DNA from: an uncultured Candidatus Binatia bacterium
GTDB taxonomy: Bacteria; Desulfobacterota; Binatia; UBA9968; JAJDTQ01
Reading direction: 5' to 3'
NCBI GenBank assembly: GCA_965261895.1
Contig: OZ253480.1
Coordinates: 549,560-613,559, forward strand
Length of the DNA: 64,000 bases
Part shown: one piece after another, positions 53,438 through 57,913 of the stretch
Layout of the letters: each line of letters opens with the position of its first letter
Numbering within the stretch: position 1 is the first letter of the stretch
Program-made: the position numbers and the translations under genes
Notes under the pieces: model-generated
What the model was told of the DNA's origin: nothing
What the model saw: only the letters and a program-made list of their open reading frames with translations
The model's database searches: none

Positions 53438-54973
53438 ATGCGTTACGGATTTGTCATCGACCAAAACCGCTGCATCGGCTGTCACGCCTGTACCGTGGCC
53501 TGCAAGGACGAGCACGACGTGCCCCTGGGGGTCAACCGGACCTGGGTCAAGTACATCGAGAAGGGTGCGTTCCCCGCCACCAGCCGCCATTTTGCGGTGC
53601 TCCGGTGCAACCATTGCGACGACGCGCCGTGCATCGAGATCTGTCCCACGGTGGCGCTCTACCGGAGCCCCAACGGCATCGTCGACTTCGACAACGAACG
53701 ATGCATCGGGTGCAAGTCGTGCATGCAGGCGTGCCCCTACGACGCCCTGTACATCGACCCCGACAACAATACCGCCGCCAAGTGCAACTTCTGCGCGCAC
53801 CGGGTGGAGCTCGGGCTGCAGCCGGCCTGCGAGGTGGTGTGTCCCACCCAGGCCATTATGTCCGGCGACCTCGACGACCCGGACAGCCGCATCAGCCGCA
53901 CCGTGGCCACCCAAAAGGTCTCCGTCAGAAAGCCCCACAAGGGCACCAACCCCAAGCTTTTCTACGTCGGCGTCGAGGAAGACGTGCTGCAGCCAACCAT
54001 GACCGAAACCTCCGACACCCACTTGTGGGCTGACAAGTACCCCGGCGAGGATCTCTACGCCCTCTCCGCTTCCAGACACGGGGGCCCGGTTCCGGGCGGC
54101 GCGCGCGAGGTCTACGACGTGCCGCACCCGAGGCCCTGGGGGCCGAAGATCGCCGCCTATCTCTGGACCAAGTCCATCGGCTCCGGGGTGCTGCTGGTGG
54201 CGGCCTTGCTCATGATGCTCGGGGCGAGCCGGGGCGGGCCGTTGCTGAACATCGTGAGCCCGATTCTGGCGCTGGTCTTTACCGGGCTCACCACCGGCAT
54301 CCTGATCTACGATCTCAAGCGGCCCGACCGCTTCTACTACCTGCTGACCAAGCCCAACCTGCGCTCATGGCTCGTGCTGGGCGGTTACATCCTGATGGCC
54401 TACTCCCTCGCCAGCGTCGTCTGGCTTGCCTACGGGACCGGGACCGGCAGCGTGCCTGTGTGGGTTATCGCCGCCTGCGGCATCCTCGGCATCGGCTCCG
54501 CGGGCTATTCCGCGTTTCTGTTCGCCCAGGCCAAGGGCCGCGACCTGTGGCAGAGCCCGCTCTTTCTCTGGCATCTGCTGGCCCAGGCCGTCGCCGCCGG
54601 GGCCGCCACCCTGATCCTGTTCGGCCTCGTGACGGGCCTCGATGGCCAGGTCATGGCGACCATCGGCACCATCCTCATGGTTTCACTGATCGTCACCGCG
54701 GGTCTGGTGCTGGGAGAGGTGGCGCTGACACCCATCAGCGAGGACGTGCGGCGCGCCACCGAGCTGCTCACCTGCGGTGCGCTCCGGGAGAAGTTCTGGG
54801 GCCTGTTCATGGCCGTGGGCATCCTTCTGCCGGTGATCTTTCTGGTGTGGGCCGGGGCACAGGAACAGGCCTCCTGGTTGCTGCACCCCCTGTCCGCGTT
54901 GCTGGCCCTCATCGGACTCTGGGCGTTCGAGTCCTTGTGGGTCGAGGCCGGGCAAGCCGTGCCGCTGAGCTAG
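53438..54973 (+). CDS. Fusion protein: 4x[4Fe-4S] ferredoxin (DmsB/PsrB-like) + NrfD/PsrC-like integral membrane domain
   Basis: MRYGFVIDQNRCIGCHACTVAC plus three further CxxCxxCxxxCP motifs, then ~8 predicted TM helices. GGAGGA SD. No twin-arginine motif. Confidence 0.8.
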   Translation: MRYGFVIDQNRCIGCHACTVACKDEHDVPLGVNRTWVKYIEKGAFPATSRHFAVLRCNHCDDAPCIEICPTVALYRSPNGIVDFDNERCIGCKSCMQACPYDALYIDPDNNTAAKCNFCAHRVELGLQPACEVVCPTQAIMSGDLDDPDSRISRTVATQKVSVRKPHKGTNPKLFYVGVEEDVLQPTMTETSDTHLWADKYPGEDLYALSASRHGGPVPGGAREVYDVPHPRPWGPKIAAYLWTKSIGSGVLLVAALLMMLGASRGGPLLNIVSPILALVFTGLTTGILIYDLKRPDRFYYLLTKPNLRSWLVLGGYILMAYSLASVVWLAYGTGTGSVPVWVIAACGILGIGSAGYSAFLFAQAKGRDLWQSPLFLWHLLAQAVAAGAATLILFGLVTGLDGQVMATIGTILMVSLIVTAGLVLGEVALTPISEDVRRATELLTCGALREKFWGLFMAVGILLPVIFLVWAGAQEQASWLLHPLSALLALIGLWAFESLWVEAGQAVPLS

Positions 54974-55023
54974 TGTCGCGTCGCCGGCGCTCACGGCCGG
55001 CCATTTGGCGCCATGACGGACGC

Positions 55024-55044: not shown

Positions 55045-55087
55045 CTACGACAGCCACGCCCGATGCAGCAAGAAGGGACCCGTCGCA

Positions 55088-57913
55088 ATGAAGAACGACA
55101 TGCAACCTCTGAGCCCCGACGCCGCCAACCTCGAGCCGCCGCAGGGAGGACTCCAGAGCTATCCCCCTTCCGACCGCTGGTCGGATTGGACCGAATACGA
55201 CGCGGCCGCGTGGCCCAGGCGGGTGGAGAAGCACTACGACCTGATCCCCACCATCTGCTTCAACTGCGAGGCGGGCTGCGGCCTGCTGGCCTACGTGGAC
55301 AAGGAAACGCAGAAGATACGCAAGTTCGAGGGCAATCCGGAACATCCGGGCAGCCGCGGCCGGAACTGCGCCAAGGGCCCGGCCACCATCAACCAGGTGA
55401 ATGACCCTGAACGCATCCTCTACCCCATGAAACGGGCGGGAAAGCGCGGCGGCGGCCAATGGGAACGCGTGACCTGGGACGAAGTGTTGGACGATCTGGC
55501 CGGAAGGATCCGGAAGGCCCTCGAGGAGGACCGCCGCAACGAGATCATGTACCACGTGGGGCGCCCCGGACATGAGCTCCTCTACCACCAGCGCATCATG
55601 CACGCCTGGGGCATCGACGCCCACAACAGCCACACCAACGTGTGCTCCGCCGGGGCCCGGGCCGGCTACGCGTTCTGGTGCGGCATCGACCGTCCCTCTC
55701 CCGATCATGCCAACGCGCGCTTCATGCTGATGCTGAGCTCGCACCTGGAGACCGGGCACTACTTCAACCCCCACGCCCAGCGCATCATCGAAGCCAAGGA
55801 GCGCGGCGCCAAGGTCTGCGTCATCGACACCCGGCTGTCCAACACCGCGTCCAAGGCCGACTACTGGATGCCCACCTGGCCCGGCACCGAAGCCGCGGTG
55901 CTGCTGGCCATGTGCAACGTGCTGCTCCAGGAAAGTCTCTACGACCGCGAGTTCGTGAGGAAGTGGGTCAACTGGGAGCAGTTCCTGCGCCAGGAACATC
56001 CGGACGAGCCCCAGACCTTCGAGCGGTTCGAAGAGATCCTCAAGACCCTCTACGGGCAGTACACGCCCGAGTTCGCCGCGGCCGAGTCCGGGGTGGACGC
56101 GGCCATGATCGTGGAGGTGGCCCACGAGGTGGCCCGGGCCGGCTCCGCGCTGTCCACCCACGTGTGGCGCAACGCCGCCGCGGGCAACCTGGGCGGCTGG
56201 GAAGTAGCCCGGGCGCTGGAGTTCCTGGTGGTGCTCATGGGCGCCGTGGGCACTCCCGGCGGCACCGCCCCCAACGCCTGGAACAAGTTCGTCCCCGCCC
56301 CGCCGATGATGCCGCCGCCGGCCAAGGAGTGGAACACGCTCATGTATCCGCCGGAATACCCGCTGGCGTTCTTCGAGATGAGCTTTCTGCTGCCGCACCT
56401 CATCAAGGAGGGCCGGGGTAAACTGGCCATGTATTTCACCCGGGTCTACAACCCGGTGTGGACCAACCCGGACGGCATGAGCTGGATCGAGATGCTGAGC
56501 GACGAGGCCAAGGTGGAGCGCCACGCCTGTCTCACGCCCACCTGGAGCGAGACCGCCTGGTTTGCGGACTACGTGCTGCCCATGGGCCTGGCGTCGGAGC
56601 GGCACGACCTCATGAGCCAGGAGACCCACTCGGCGCGCTGGATCGGTTTTCGCCAACCGGTGCTGCGGGTCGCCATGGAACGGCGGGGCAAGACCTTCGA
56701 CACCACCTGGGAGGCCCATGTGGAAGCCGGGCTGGGGGAAGTGTGGGAAGAGGACGAGTTCTGGATCGAGCTGTCCTGGCGCATCGATCCCGACGGCTCC
56801 CTGGGTATCCGGAAATACTTCGAGTCGCCGTACCGGCCGGGCGAGAAGCTCACGGTGTCGGAGTACTACCAGTGGATGTTCGAGAACAGCGTGCCGGGCC
56901 TGCCGGAGGCCGCGGCCAAGGAAGAAATCTCGCCGCTGGAATACATGCGCAAGTACGGCGCCTTCCTGGTGGCCGAAAACATCTACAGCAGCCACGCCAC
57001 CGAGCTCAAGGAGGCGGACGTGGCGGAAGCCGTGGTGGACCCGGTTACCAAGGTCGTCTCCAAGGGCGGCGCCGTGCTCGGCGTCGAGGTGGACGGCAAG
57101 GCCCAGGCCGGCTTCCCGACGCCCTCGCGGAAGCTCGAGTTCTATTCCGAGACCCTCAAGGACTGGAAGTGGCCCGAGCACCGGTTTCCCGGGTACATCA
57201 AGAGCCACGTCCACCCTTCCAATATCGACGTCGCCAAGGGGGAGATGCTGCTGCTGCCCACCTTCCGGCTGCCCACCCTCATTCACAGCCGCTCGGGCAA
57301 CGCCAAGTGGCTCTACGAGATCTCGCACAAGAATCCGGTATGGCTGCATACCCGGGACGCCGAACGCCTCGGGGTCGTCACCGGGGACCTCGTCAAGGTC
57401 CACACCGAGATCGGCTATTTCGTGGACCGGGTCTGGGTCACCGAGGGGATCCGGCCCGGCGTGGTGGCGTGCTCGCATCACCTGGGGCGCTGGCGCCTGC
57501 AGGAGGAAACCGGCGGCGGCCATTTCGCCACGGCCCTGGTCAAGCTGGAGCAGGTGGAGCCCGGGCAGTGGATGATGCGACAGCTTCACGGCATTCAGCC
57601 TTTCGAGAGCGCCGACAAGGACTCCGGGCGGGTGTGGTGGCAGGAAGCCGGCGTCCACCAGAACCTGACCTTTCCGGTGCAGCCCGACAACATCAGCGGA
57701 CAGCATTGCTGGCACCAGAAGGTGCGGGTGGAACGGCCCGGGGACGACGACCGCTACGGCGATATCTTCGTGGACACCAACAAATCCCACGAGGTGTACA
57801 AGCGCTGGCTCAAGCTGACCCGGCCGGCCCCGGGACCGGGGAATCTGCGCCGTCCGCTGTGGCTCTTGCGCGCCTACAAGCCGGCGCCGGAGGCCTACGA
57901 GTTCAAGCCGTGA
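55088..57913 (+). CDS. Molybdopterin oxidoreductase catalytic subunit (DMSO-reductase/CISM superfamily), no Tat signal
   Basis: N-terminal CFNCEAGCG...C FeS-0 motif and overall MopB character across ~940 aa. The N-terminus MKNDMQPLSPDAANLEPPQ lacks RRxFLK. AAGAAGGGA SD. Confidence 0.8.
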   Translation: MKNDMQPLSPDAANLEPPQGGLQSYPPSDRWSDWTEYDAAAWPRRVEKHYDLIPTICFNCEAGCGLLAYVDKETQKIRKFEGNPEHPGSRGRNCAKGPATINQVNDPERILYPMKRAGKRGGGQWERVTWDEVLDDLAGRIRKALEEDRRNEIMYHVGRPGHELLYHQRIMHAWGIDAHNSHTNVCSAGARAGYAFWCGIDRPSPDHANARFMLMLSSHLETGHYFNPHAQRIIEAKERGAKVCVIDTRLSNTASKADYWMPTWPGTEAAVLLAMCNVLLQESLYDREFVRKWVNWEQFLRQEHPDEPQTFERFEEILKTLYGQYTPEFAAAESGVDAAMIVEVAHEVARAGSALSTHVWRNAAAGNLGGWEVARALEFLVVLMGAVGTPGGTAPNAWNKFVPAPPMMPPPAKEWNTLMYPPEYPLAFFEMSFLLPHLIKEGRGKLAMYFTRVYNPVWTNPDGMSWIEMLSDEAKVERHACLTPTWSETAWFADYVLPMGLASERHDLMSQETHSARWIGFRQPVLRVAMERRGKTFDTTWEAHVEAGLGEVWEEDEFWIELSWRIDPDGSLGIRKYFESPYRPGEKLTVSEYYQWMFENSVPGLPEAAAKEEISPLEYMRKYGAFLVAENIYSSHATELKEADVAEAVVDPVTKVVSKGGAVLGVEVDGKAQAGFPTPSRKLEFYSETLKDWKWPEHRFPGYIKSHVHPSNIDVAKGEMLLLPTFRLPTLIHSRSGNAKWLYEISHKNPVWLHTRDAERLGVVTGDLVKVHTEIGYFVDRVWVTEGIRPGVVACSHHLGRWRLQEETGGGHFATALVKLEQVEPGQWMMRQLHGIQPFESADKDSGRVWWQEAGVHQNLTFPVQPDNISGQHCWHQKVRVERPGDDDRYGDIFVDTNKSHEVYKRWLKLTRPAPGPGNLRRPLWLLRAYKPAPEAYEFKP

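What the first reader, a model, noticed from the sequence alone, without database searches (positions are those of the whole stretch)
53438..57913. Unusual Tat-less molybdoenzyme with an FeS-NrfD fusion subunit, next to a TctABC(x3) tricarboxylate uptake locus
The catalytic subunit (55088..57913) has the CISM N-terminal CxxCxxxC...C cluster motif but no twin-arginine leader. The preceding gene fuses a four-cluster ferredoxin (DmsB/PsrB-like) directly to an NrfD/PsrC-like ~8-TM anchor, again without a Tat motif. In characterised Psr/Phs/Ttr/Dms enzymes the B and C subunits are separate and A (or B) carries a Tat signal; ACIII fuses differently. This suggests a cytoplasm-facing, membrane-anchored molybdoenzyme of unassigned substrate. 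It is immediately followed by tctA-tctB and three tctC genes, and preceded divergently by CoA-transferase A/B, which hints at an organic-acid substrate.
Basis: inference. Interest (0 to 1): 0.6.

Follow-up and report, generated by a model that had tools for sequence, protein, structure and literature searches.

The report
Inward-facing molybdoenzyme, probably sulfite dehydrogenase
Two adjacent genes in this Binatia genome encode a membrane-bound molybdenum enzyme that faces the cell interior. Its iron-sulfur and membrane-anchor subunits are fused into one protein. It belongs to a very large, unnamed family that most likely oxidises toxic sulfite to sulfate and passes the electrons to quinone in many soil bacteria and haloarchaea.

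Summary
Gene 53438-54973 fuses a 16-cysteine, four-cluster ferredoxin to an 8-helix NrfD/PsrC anchor. Gene 55088-57913 is a 941-aa Mo-bisPGD catalytic subunit with an FS0 motif and a Cys ligand. Neither gene can carry a Tat or Sec leader.

This is not a one-off. More than 8000 database proteins match each gene. In 74 of 74 related loci with upstream sequence, the fused gene sits directly upstream of the catalytic gene. Lysine and arginine counts in the loops put the ferredoxin side in the cytoplasm, which is the reverse of Tat-dependent relatives.

The Tct transporter and CoA-transferase neighbours occur only in close (>=90% identity) Binatia relatives. In other lineages the pair sits beside TauE, SoxYZ, a persulfide-dioxygenase-like protein, rhodanese, TusA, DsrE, and CsoR- or ArsR-type regulators.

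Best reading (about 0.55): a cytoplasm-facing sulfite:quinone oxidoreductase that works like SoeABC. It has a fused B-C subunit, the gene order BC then A, and a host range that does not overlap the published SoeC host range. Orthology to canonical SoeA could not be tested.

Verdict: a new variant of a known kind. It can be tested in Rhodococcus jostii RHA1 and Thermomicrobium roseum.

The parts
53438..54973 (+). Fused B-C subunit gene (511 aa): four-cluster ferredoxin, linker, then an NrfD/PsrC-type quinone-binding anchor
   Evidence: Pfam Fer4_11 and NrfD lie in one ORF. The closest solved relatives are PsrB 2vpw_B (E=2e-50) and, by fold, ActC and PsrC. The fusion is present in all 120 listed homologues and in 74/74 loci with upstream sequence.
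53438..53977 (+). Ferredoxin (B) domain, residues 1-180. It has 16 Cys at residues 12-135 (nt 53471-53842), enough for four [4Fe-4S] clusters. There is no signal peptide.
   Evidence: All 16 are invariant in alignments A1 and A2. The first motif starts at residue 12 in 118 homologues.
53978..54172 (+). Linker between the ferredoxin domain and TM1, residues 181-245, with conserved W197, H230, W234 and G235
   Evidence: Alignment invariants. The AF2 model has low confidence here.
54173..54970 (+). NrfD-type domain with 8 TM helices (about 246-264, 272-290, 312-330, 343-361, 380-398, 412-430, 456-474 and 484-502). Positive charges lie on the ferredoxin side.
   Evidence: Hydropathy and K+R counts of 11 against 1. 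Family means are 12.2 against 1.9 (n=40), and the bias is reversed in the unfused Azoarcus and Sulfurovum NrfD proteins. The AF2 TM part has pLDDT of about 80-95. Foldseek hits ActC and PsrC.
55024..55044 (.). REP-like palindrome inserted between the two cistrons. It causes the false 5' extension of the catalytic-subunit ORF and is not part of the enzyme.
   Evidence: At this position it is present only in the window, L060 and L004.
55088..57913 (+). Catalytic A subunit (941 aa), Mo/W-bisPGD (MopB) family, with no Tat leader
   Evidence: Pfam PF04879, PF00384 and PF01568. Homologues are 939-945 aa. The AF2 model has pLDDT 82 and pTM 0.85. The closest folds are ArrA 6cz7 and PsrA 2vpw.
55256..55369 (+). 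FS0 [4Fe-4S] motif, C57-x2-C60-x3-C64...C94
   Evidence: Sequence. All four Cys are invariant in A3.
55643..55645 (+). Cys186, the predicted Mo ligand
   Evidence: It aligns with Cys173 of T. thermophilus PsrA, which I know to be the Mo ligand. It is at least 90% conserved in A3.
51019..52938 (-). Two family-I CoA-transferase subunit genes (51019-51834 and 52027-52938), divergent neighbours. These are clade-specific context, not part of the conserved unit.
   Evidence: Pfam CoA_trans. They occur only in the 22 loci with >=90% identity.
58353..63986 (.). TTT transporter genes: TctA (58353-59837, +), TctB (59843-60355, +) and three paralogous secreted TctC-like binding proteins (60496-61599, 61709-62746 and 62958-63986, -). 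These are clade-specific context.
   Evidence: Pfam TctA and TctB. The TctC-like proteins give only weak hits to Bug/TctC structures. TctA and the TctC-like paralogues occur only in loci with >=90% identity.

Best explanation
The two genes encode a two-polypeptide, three-module iron-sulfur molybdoenzyme that is assembled in the cytoplasm and stays there.

Shown:
- A is a Mo-bisPGD subunit with an FS0 cluster and a Cys ligand.
- BC carries four [4Fe-4S] clusters fused to an 8-helix NrfD-type anchor.
- Neither protein has an export signal.
- Charge bias places the ferredoxin domain, and therefore A, on the cytoplasmic face. This is the reverse of Tat-dependent relatives.
- The pair is the only conserved unit across more than ten phyla.

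Inferred:
- The two electrons pass through FS0 and the four clusters of the B domain.
- They reduce quinone bound at the cytoplasmic side of the C domain.
- The enzyme would therefore work like SoeABC (EC 1.8.5.6). It would detoxify sulfite released by persulfide dioxygenase, sHdr-type sulfur oxidation or organosulfur breakdown, and feed the electrons into aerobic respiration.
- Fusing B to the N-terminus of C fixes the stoichiometry and anchors the cytoplasmic arm without Tat-dependent assembly.

In the window's own clade the sulfite source is not visible nearby.
For: Architecture and orientation rest.

The pair is conserved as a unit in 74/74 loci.

Sulfur context recurs in independent lineages:
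- Methylomirabilota, Verrucomicrobia and Planctomycetes group (28 loci): TauE directly upstream in 12-14 loci, SoxY and SoxZ in 14, a redoxin in 18 and SoxXA in 6.
- A 5.4-Mb genome: BC, A, NarJ/TorD-type chaperone, DsrE-like, TusA, Lactamase_B, rhodanese, TauE.
- Streptosporangiaceae: Lactamase_B-rhodanese fusion, ArsR-type regulator, BC, A, chaperone, DsrE-like, TusA, DUF202 x2.
- R. jostii RHA1 plasmid pRHL3: DsrE-like, TusA, BC, A, with MBL-fold proteins, ArsR, TrxA and DUF202 nearby.
- T. roseum: a CsoR-type regulator directly upstream.
- ArsR-type regulators directly upstream in Actinobacteria and Dormibacterota.

From the literature:
- T. roseum strongly expresses an sHdr-type sulfur-oxidation cluster (PMC6776052).
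- In Proteobacteria sHdr always co-occurs with soeABC (PMC6397845).
- SoeABC is the one NrfD complex proposed to face the N-side (PMC8076601).
- Binatia encode several sulfite-releasing organosulfur pathways, and the Binatota genome paper names no sulfite oxidase.

From my own knowledge, T. roseum, R. jostii and haloarchaea are aerobes. That fits a dehydrogenase feeding quinone better than an anaerobic reductase.
Against: - There is no biochemical evidence for any member of the family.
- No bona fide SoeA sequence could be obtained, so orthology is untested.
- By sequence and fold, the closest characterised enzymes are reductases: PsrA, PhsA and ArrA.
- The window's own clade has no sulfur gene within 10 kb of the pair or elsewhere in the 64-kb window. 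Some other loci also lack sulfur context.
- TusA, DsrE and rhodanese neighbours would fit a carrier-bound or sulfane-sulfur substrate as well as free sulfite.
- The AF2 model of the ferredoxin domain was poor, so the B-C interface and the quinone site are not modelled.
Confidence: 0.55

Rival explanations
1. The architecture and orientation are the same, but the substrate is a different sulfur species. Candidates are cytoplasmic thiosulfate, polysulfide or tetrathionate, or sulfur bound to a carrier protein such as a TusA or DsrE persulfide or thiosulfonate. The enzyme could run as a dehydrogenase or as a quinol-dependent reductase.
For: The best sequence and fold matches are PhsA, PsrA and ArrA. 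DsrE-like, TusA and rhodanese genes lie directly adjacent in four loci from different lineages. SoxYZ, a carrier of bound sulfur, is adjacent in 14 loci. Tat-less cytoplasmic PhsAB-like enzymes have been proposed elsewhere (PMC13490349).
Against: All scores to PhsA, TtrA and ArrA lie far below the curated cutoffs (215 against 694, 97 against 1750, 118 against 1600). The TauE sulfite-exporter family and persulfide-dioxygenase-like neighbours point to sulfite as the local metabolite. The cultured hosts are aerobes, in which a cytoplasmic quinol-driven sulfur reductase has no obvious role (own knowledge).
Confidence: 0.25
2. One reading: the enzyme acts on an organic acid. The substrate is imported by the adjacent TctABC system and handled with the divergent CoA-transferase.
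For: TctA, TctB, three TctC-like genes and the CoA-transferase A/B genes are adjacent in the window and in all 21 close relatives. Cytoplasmic MopB enzymes that act on organic substrates exist, such as acetylene hydratase and pyrogallol transhydroxylase, and both appear among the fold hits.
Against: This synteny stops at the >=90% identity clade. None of the 59 more distant loci in that analysis keeps it, yet the A subunit stays 62-79% identical. Such sequence conservation across changing carbon-metabolism neighbours, combined with recurrent sulfur neighbours, argues for one inorganic substrate. A milder link remains possible: TTT import followed by CoA activation of a sulfinated or sulfonated carboxylate that releases sulfite, as in 3-sulfinopropionate catabolism (PMC6370202). 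In that case the molybdoenzyme's substrate would still be sulfite.
Confidence: 0.05
3. The enzyme is really periplasmic. It would be exported by hitch-hiking on another Tat substrate, or the gene starts are wrong.
For: The nearest relatives outside the family carry classical Tat leaders (P0280 at 49% identity with MHRRTFLKAA, also P0321 and P0299).
Against: Stop codons lie immediately upstream of both ORFs. None of 239 A homologues and at most 1 of 118 BC homologues has a leader. Charge bias is strongly inside on the ferredoxin side in all 40 sequences tested. A fused ferredoxin followed by 8 TM helices could not pass through Tat as a folded unit (inference).
Confidence: 0.02
4. The A subunit has no cofactor, and the complex is only an electron-transfer or ion-translocating module, as in QrcB or the MopB-like part of ActB.
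For: Precedents exist in Qrc and ACIII (PMC6303296). There are weak NCBIfam hits to QrcB and QrcC.
Against: The FS0 cysteines, the Cys186 ligand position and both pterin-binding domains are conserved across the family. A NarJ/TorD-type cofactor-insertion chaperone gene follows A in five loci. No cytochrome partner is conserved next to the pair.
Confidence: 0.03

Closest known systems
SoeABC, cytoplasm-facing sulfite:quinone oxidoreductase (Allochromatium vinosum Alvin_2489-2491; Aquifex aeolicus Aq_1231/1232/1234)
   Same: It has the same three modules: a Mo-bisPGD subunit with FS0, a four-cluster ferredoxin and an 8-TM NrfD-type anchor. It has no Tat signals. Its peripheral arm is proposed to lie on the N-side with an inverted anchor (PMC8076601). 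It is associated with cytoplasmic sulfite-forming sulfur oxidation and with SoxYZ (PMC6397845).
   Different: Here B and C are one polypeptide, and the gene order is BC then A rather than soeA-soeB-soeC. The published SoeC survey found the family only in Proteobacteria, a few Clostridia and Aquificae. The present family is in Binatia, Methylomirabilota, Acidobacteriota, Actinomycetota, Chloroflexota, Dormibacterota, Planctomycetota, Verrucomicrobiota, Nitrospinota and Halobacteria. IMG gives the family only COG names and no KO name. Sequence orthology could not be tested.
PsrABC polysulfide reductase of Thermus thermophilus (PDB 2VPW), and PhsABC thiosulfate reductase
   Same: These are the closest solved or curated relatives of both proteins: PsrA E=2e-38 and PsrB E=2e-50, and PhsA is the best NCBIfam hit. 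They share the cofactor set, the Cys ligand position and the 8-TM anchor fold.
   Different: Psr and Phs are Tat-exported and periplasmic, have separate B and C subunits, and run as quinol-driven reductases. Here there is no Tat leader, B and C are fused, and the charge bias is opposite. A is about 180 residues longer than PsrA. The PhsA score is 215 against a cutoff of 694, and structural-alignment identity is only 19-22%.
Alternative complex III (ActB/ActC)
   Same: It also contains an NrfD-type subunit, and it also contains a fusion involving the four-cluster ferredoxin. ActC is the best fold match for the membrane domain.
   Different: In ACIII the ferredoxin is fused to a cofactor-less MopB-like domain (ActB), not to the anchor. 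ACIII is periplasmic, has 10-TM anchors and has cytochrome c subunits.
Tat-dependent, uncharacterised sister proteins (P0280, P0321, P0299) and the unfused B / C / A + TorD clusters of Azoarcus sp. KH32C and Sulfurovum mangrovi
   Same: These are the nearest relatives outside the family (49-33% identity). P0280, P0321 and P0299 share the N-terminal YPP..W motif. Azoarcus has the same B, C, A gene order.
   Different: P0280, P0321, P0299 and the Azoarcus A subunit carry twin-arginine leaders. In the Azoarcus and Sulfurovum clusters B and C are separate genes and the NrfD charge bias is the canonical, opposite one. P0280, P0321 and P0299 are also unassigned in NCBIfam.

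Membership tests
Complex iron-sulfur molybdoenzyme (CISM) / DMSO-reductase (Mo-bisPGD) superfamily | Catalytic subunit with Molybdopterin and Molydop_binding domains and an N-terminal FS0 Cys motif | tested here: met
   Pfam PF00384, PF01568 and PF04879 are all above cutoff. C57, C60, C64 and C94 are invariant. The fold matches ArrA and PsrA.
Complex iron-sulfur molybdoenzyme (CISM) / DMSO-reductase (Mo-bisPGD) superfamily | Four-cluster ferredoxin electron-transfer subunit (16 Cys) | tested here: met
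   There are 16 Cys in four motifs, all invariant. PsrB matches at E=2e-50.
Complex iron-sulfur molybdoenzyme (CISM) / DMSO-reductase (Mo-bisPGD) superfamily | Protein ligand to Mo at the conserved position | tested here: met
   Cys186 aligns with PsrA Cys173 and is at least 90% conserved. Metal content itself is not testable here.
NrfD/PsrC anchor family | Haem-less 8-10 TM anchor built from two four-helix bundles | tested here: met
   Pfam NrfD E=5e-20. There are 8 helices. Foldseek hits ActC and PsrC, with TM-score 0.72 normalised to PsrC.
SoeABC sulfite dehydrogenase (quinone) | No Tat or Sec signal on A or B; peripheral arm on the cytoplasmic side with an inverted anchor | tested here: met
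   No leader is possible. K+R counts are 11 against 1 (family means 12.2 against 1.9), and the bias is reversed in unfused NrfD proteins of Tat-type relatives.
SoeABC sulfite dehydrogenase (quinone) | Three separate subunits encoded as soeA-soeB-soeC | tested here: not met
   B and C are one ORF that lies upstream of A, in 74/74 loci.
SoeABC sulfite dehydrogenase (quinone) | Sequence orthology to characterised SoeA, SoeB and SoeC (A. vinosum, A. aeolicus; KEGG K21307-K21309) | not testable with these tools
   No reference sequence, NCBIfam model or PDB entry was available. Indirect evidence points against it: IMG assigns no KO name, and the published SoeC host range excludes all phyla found here.
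SoeABC sulfite dehydrogenase (quinone) | Sulfite:quinone oxidoreductase activity | not testable with these tools
   This needs biochemistry or genetics.
SoeABC sulfite dehydrogenase (quinone) | Genomic association with cytoplasmic sulfite-forming or sulfite-handling systems | tested here: inconclusive
   Met in several lineages: TauE, SoxYZ, PDO-like protein, rhodanese, TusA and DsrE. Not met in the window's own clade or in L091.
PsrABC / PhsABC (polysulfide / thiosulfate reductase) | Twin-arginine leader on A and a periplasmic active site | tested here: not met
PsrABC / PhsABC (polysulfide / thiosulfate reductase) | Score above the curated PhsA model cutoff | tested here: not met
   215 bits against a cutoff of 694.
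TtrABC tetrathionate reductase | Scores above the curated TtrA and TtrB cutoffs | tested here: not met
   TtrA 97 against 1750; TtrB 187.5 against 416.
Alternative complex III | ActB-type fusion (MopB-like domain plus ferredoxin), cytochrome c subunits and a 10-TM ActC/ActF pair | tested here: not met
   The fusion here is ferredoxin plus anchor. No conserved cytochrome genes lie nearby, and the anchor has 8 TM helices.
Tripartite tricarboxylate transporter (neighbouring genes) | TctA and TctB membrane subunits and a TctC/Bug binding protein | tested here: met
   TctA E=3e-128. TctB E=2e-10. The three binding proteins hit only Bug/TctC structures, and weakly (E=4e-7 to 1e-3), so they are divergent members.

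The most novel reading that the evidence does not exclude
This family is an independent lineage, not orthologous to SoeABC. It arose from a Tat-exported Psr-like ancestor by losing the leader, inverting the NrfD anchor in the membrane and fusing the ferredoxin to that anchor. It is then the main, so far unrecognised, cytoplasmic sulfite-oxidising (or carrier-bound sulfur-oxidising) respiratory enzyme. Its hosts would be the dominant non-proteobacterial soil phyla (Binatia, Methylomirabilota, Acidobacteriota, Actinomycetota, Chloroflexota) and haloarchaea.
Probability: 0.35. Interest if true: 0.65.

Novelty: new variant of a known kind. Interest (0 to 1): 0.5.

Why it matters
Sulfite is a toxic product common to sulfide detoxification, sHdr- and Dsr-type sulfur oxidation, and the breakdown of sulfonates, sulfones and sulfinates.

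For Proteobacteria, the cytoplasmic answer is SoeABC. For Binatia, Rokubacteria, Acidobacteria, Actinobacteria, Chloroflexi and haloarchaea, metagenome studies often list sulfite-producing genes and no sulfite oxidase. This enzyme may also be mislabelled: one Binatota MAG study lists phsA, and two NCBI records call members 'formate dehydrogenase'.

A conserved, very abundant BC-A pair would fill that gap. More than 8000 matches were scored for each gene, which is the scoring cap.

Mechanistically, it offers a natural experiment in reversing the membrane orientation of an NrfD quinone module. The Tat-dependent sister proteins serve as comparison.

The family occurs in cultivable organisms, including the genetically tractable R. 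jostii RHA1 (own knowledge), as well as T. roseum and Natrinema. The hypothesis is therefore directly testable.

Tried and rejected
- **Getting a canonical SoeA reference failed by every route.** No NCBIfam model exists and there is no PDB entry. The afdb50 fold library was not installed. Cluster look-ups returned no useful names. Dahl et al. 2013 is not held, and the NrfD review has no text supplements. Plasmid tblastn hits in Thioclava and Rhizobium turned out to be unrelated soluble MopB enzymes.
- **The third homologue search did not help.** I used the 43%-identical, Tat-less representative P0278, hoping it was SoeA-like. It only widened the same unnamed family.
- **The AF2 model of the BC fusion was only half useful.** The membrane domain is good, but the ferredoxin domain has pLDDT below 50. 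I therefore did not use the model for the B-C interface or the quinone site.
- **My first Tat screen gave false positives.** It flagged 28 of 239 A homologues. On inspection, all 28 were the internal WPRRVERRY motif next to FS0.
- **The REP-like palindrome is not a regulatory part of the operon.** At the BC-A junction it is present in only 3 of 22 close relatives, counting the window.
- **The window holds no maturation genes.** I looked for moaA, mobA and NarJ/TorD-type genes among its scanned ORFs and found none.
- **The SdhA/SdhB-like pair was not pursued.** It lies next to the locus in Methylomirabilota and 15 kb upstream in the window. I considered whether it is a partner of the enzyme. 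The linkage is limited to particular clades.

Full report
**1. What is in the sequence**

The window has about 65% G+C. Its closest relatives are genomes labelled Candidatus Binatia, at 90-97% protein identity for the catalytic subunit.

At the reported coordinates there are two co-directional genes.

The first is 53438-54973 (511 aa). Pfam finds a four-cluster ferredoxin domain (Fer4_11, residues 54-144) and an NrfD domain (residues 231-507) in one polypeptide. It has 16 cysteines in four ferredoxin motifs between residues 12 and 135. After a linker of about 65 residues (181-245) come eight hydrophobic helices. An AlphaFold model reproduces these helices with high confidence, and they match ActC and PsrC by fold.

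The second is 55088-57913 (941 aa). It has the Molybdop_Fe4S4, Molybdopterin and Molydop_binding domains. Its FS0 motif is C57-x2-C60-x3-C64...C94. Cys186 aligns with Cys173 of Thermus PsrA, which I know to be the Mo ligand.

The ORF finder extends the second gene to 55013. Those 25 codons are the translation of a REP-like palindrome. Homologues are 939-945 aa, so 55088 is the start.

**2. No export signal, and an inverted anchor**

Stop codons lie directly upstream of both ORFs. The ferredoxin motif begins at residue 12 in the window protein, and that is also the median start among 118 homologues.

The only RR in the catalytic subunit is part of a conserved WPRRV(E)..Y motif about ten residues before FS0. 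A crude Tat screen flagged 28 of 239 homologues, and every one of them was this internal motif. Genuine Tat-bearing relatives scored as expected.

Loops on the same side as the ferredoxin domain carry 11 Lys+Arg, and the other side carries 1. Over 40 family members the means are 12.2 and 1.9.

I aligned the membrane domain with the unfused NrfD proteins of Azoarcus sp. KH32C and Sulfurovum mangrovi, which lie beside A-subunit relatives; the Azoarcus A subunit has a Tat leader. In these the bias is reversed: 2 against 8, and 4 against 10.

The positive-inside rule therefore places the ferredoxin domain in the cytoplasm. The catalytic subunit must dock on that domain, so it is cytoplasmic too.

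**3. The layout is the rule of a very large family**

Both proteins saturate the 8000-candidate scoring limit of the homologue search. All 120 listed relatives of the first gene are 386-535 aa proteins with the same Fer4_11 and NrfD domains; all but two are 503-535 aa.

A scan of species-representative genomes returned 80 loci. In all 74 that have upstream sequence, the fused gene lies directly upstream of the catalytic gene.

Hosts include Binatia, Methylomirabilota/Rokubacteria, Acidobacteriota, Planctomycetota, Verrucomicrobiota, Dormibacterota, Chloroflexota and Nitrospinota. A further search added Actinomycetota and Vicinamibacteria.

Cultured hosts are:
- Thermomicrobium roseum DSM 5159 (megaplasmid, 64% identity)
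- Rhodococcus jostii RHA1 (pRHL3, 58%)
- several haloarchaea (54-56%)

Public names are generic: 'molybdopterin-dependent oxidoreductase', 'anaerobic selenocysteine-containing dehydrogenase', and sometimes 'formate dehydrogenase'. No NCBIfam model reaches its cutoff. PhsA is the best at 215 bits against 694.

**4. What the neighbours say**

I clustered all ORFs of the first 80 loci plus the window. The BC-A pair is the only unit shared by all groups.

TctA, the TctC-like genes, the CoA-transferase pair and the Mrp antiporter occur only in the 22 loci with >=90% identity, counting the window. They are clade-specific synteny.

Elsewhere the neighbours are sulfur genes.

- In the 72-75% identity group (28 loci), Pfam-confirmed neighbours are TauE directly upstream (12-14 loci), SoxY and SoxZ (14), a redoxin (18) and SoxXA (6).
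- A 5.4-Mb genome has BC, A, NarJ/TorD-type chaperone, DsrE-like, TusA, Lactamase_B, rhodanese and TauE in one string.
- A Streptosporangiaceae contig has a Lactamase_B-rhodanese fusion, an ArsR-type regulator, BC, A, chaperone, DsrE-like, TusA and two DUF202 genes.
- RHA1 has DsrE-like and TusA directly upstream, with MBL-fold proteins, ArsR, TrxA and DUF202 nearby.
- T. roseum has a CsoR-type regulator directly upstream.
- Actinobacterial and Dormibacterota contigs have an ArsR-type regulator directly upstream.

From my own knowledge, Lactamase_B proteins of this size, alone or fused to rhodanese, are typically persulfide dioxygenases that release sulfite. CsoR-type (CstR) and ArsR-type (BigR, SqrR) regulators include persulfide sensors. 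TauE is the sulfite-exporter family.

Not every locus has such neighbours. The window's own clade has none.

**5. Most likely function**

The recurring theme is cytoplasmic production and handling of sulfite. A cytoplasm-facing, quinone-linked molybdoenzyme in that setting is what SoeABC is in Proteobacteria and Aquificae. SoeABC is also the only NrfD-containing complex proposed to face the N-side with an inverted anchor (PMC8076601).

T. roseum strongly expresses an sHdr-type sulfur-oxidation cluster (PMC6776052). In Proteobacteria such clusters always co-occur with soeABC (PMC6397845).

Binatia carry several sulfite-releasing organosulfur pathways. The Binatota genome paper names no sulfite oxidase, and one MAG study lists 'phsA' among Binatota genes.

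I therefore propose this mechanism. Sulfite is oxidised at the Mo centre. Electrons flow through FS0 and the four clusters of the fused ferredoxin domain. They reduce quinone at the cytoplasmic face of the anchor.

This step is inferred, not shown. My confidence in the architecture and orientation is about 0.9. My confidence in sulfite as the substrate is about 0.55.

The main rival (about 0.25) is another sulfur substrate, free or bound to TusA, DsrE or SoxYZ. The adjacent sulfurtransferases and the Psr/Phs/Arr-like sequence affinities make this reasonable.

At most, those genes might feed a sulfinated or sulfonated carboxylate pathway that yields sulfite, as in 3-sulfinopropionate catabolism (PMC6370202).

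**6. Relation to known families**

The enzyme works like SoeABC, but membership is unproven.

Two defining features are met: no export signals, and an inverted NrfD anchor. One is not met: separate subunits in A-B-C order. Orthology and activity could not be tested, because no SoeA reference sequence was reachable.

Indirect evidence suggests a distinct lineage.
- IMG assigns the family COG names only, while more distant relatives get the KO name for Phs/Psr.
- The published KEGG-based survey found SoeC only in Proteobacteria, three Clostridia and five Aquificae. From my own knowledge, KEGG contains T. roseum and RHA1.
- The nearest full-length relatives outside the family are Tat-bearing, unassigned proteins at 37-49% identity. 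They share the N-terminal YPP..W motif.

Structurally, the A model (pLDDT 82) is closest to ArrA and PsrA, at only 19-22% identity.

**7. Verdict**

'Unusual' should be read as 'uncharacterised but very common'.

The orientation claim is supported. The substrate hint is not.

The finding is a new variant of a known kind: an SoeABC-like, cytoplasm-facing iron-sulfur molybdoenzyme with a fused B-C subunit. It plausibly fills the missing sulfite-oxidase role in major non-proteobacterial phyla.

Interest is moderate (0.5). SoeABC sets the precedent, so a specialist would not be astonished. However, the family's size, its mislabelling in public databases and the availability of cultured hosts make it a worthwhile experimental target.

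Noticed in passing
window 1570, 11648, 11750, 11853, 38665, 43533, 52994, 53138, 53321, 55024 (each 21 nt): There are ten exact copies of a REP-like palindrome, GGGCGGGTTTNAAACCCGCCC, where none is expected by chance. Three lie in the divergent intergenic region upstream of the BC gene and one lies between BC and A. Read in frame it gives 'GGFETRPY', which falsely extends ORFs. The copy at the BC-A junction is present in only 3 of 22 close relatives (counting the window), so it is a recent insertion.
   Followed up: partly
window 60496-61599, 61709-62746, 62958-63986 (- strand): Three tandem paralogous secreted binding proteins resemble TctC/Bug proteins only weakly (2dvz E=4e-7). They miss the Pfam TctC model at 1e-3, so they form a divergent TTT binding-protein subfamily of unknown ligand.
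   Followed up: partly
window 37002-40509 (+); also L044, L039 and other 72-75% identity loci: An SdhA-like flavoprotein (37002-38708), a small Fer2_3 protein (38721-39110) and a Pyr_redox_2 dehydrogenase (39115-40509) lie together. An SdhA/SdhB-like pair also sits beside the BC-A pair in 15-17 Methylomirabilota-group loci. This may be the 'aprA-like' clade reported for SAR202 and Rokubacteria (PMC5864207).
   Followed up: no
window 32839-36843 (- strand): A cyclase, an unassigned 294-aa ORF, a Haem_oxygenas_2/TENA-family protein and an amidohydrolase lie together. The same two families (Haem_oxygenas_2 and amidohydrolase), plus a ThDP enzyme, flank the BC-A pair in the 76-79% identity Binatia group.
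   Followed up: no
P0280, P0321, P0299 (representatives search, not in the window): The nearest relatives of the catalytic subunit outside the family carry classical twin-arginine leaders. They are 915-1123 aa, share the N-terminal YPP..W motif and match no NCBIfam model at 1e-40. They form an uncharacterised periplasmic sister group.
   Followed up: partly
window 55205-55240 (A residues about 40-51), family-wide: A conserved 'AWPRRV(E)RRY' motif lies immediately before the FS0 cysteines. It contains one or two RR pairs but is not a signal peptide. Whether a NarJ/TorD-type chaperone binds it is unknown. A chaperone gene of that type follows A in several lineages, but none is present in the window.
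   Followed up: no
L082 11799-12968 (R. jostii RHA1) and L085 9900-11060 (Natrinema halophilum): In Rhodococcus and haloarchaea an Mrp/NBP35-family ATPase gene directly follows the catalytic gene, overlapping its end. In other lineages a NarJ/TorD-type chaperone gene occupies that position.
   Followed up: no
window 22000-26000 and 42244-43767: G+C dips to 0.58-0.59 where an AAA_15/AAA_21 ATPase gene lies (24274-25551). A HigB-like toxin domain lies at the end of ORF 42244-43767. These may be defence or mobile islets.
   Followed up: no
window 45329-50961 (- strand) and 19325-21922 (- strand): An Mrp-type cation/proton antiporter operon lies next to the CoA-transferase genes; its MrpA-like gene is 48667-50961 and its MrpD-like gene is 46402-47901. 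A separate xanthine-dehydrogenase-family molybdoenzyme gene lies at 19325-21922.
   Followed up: no
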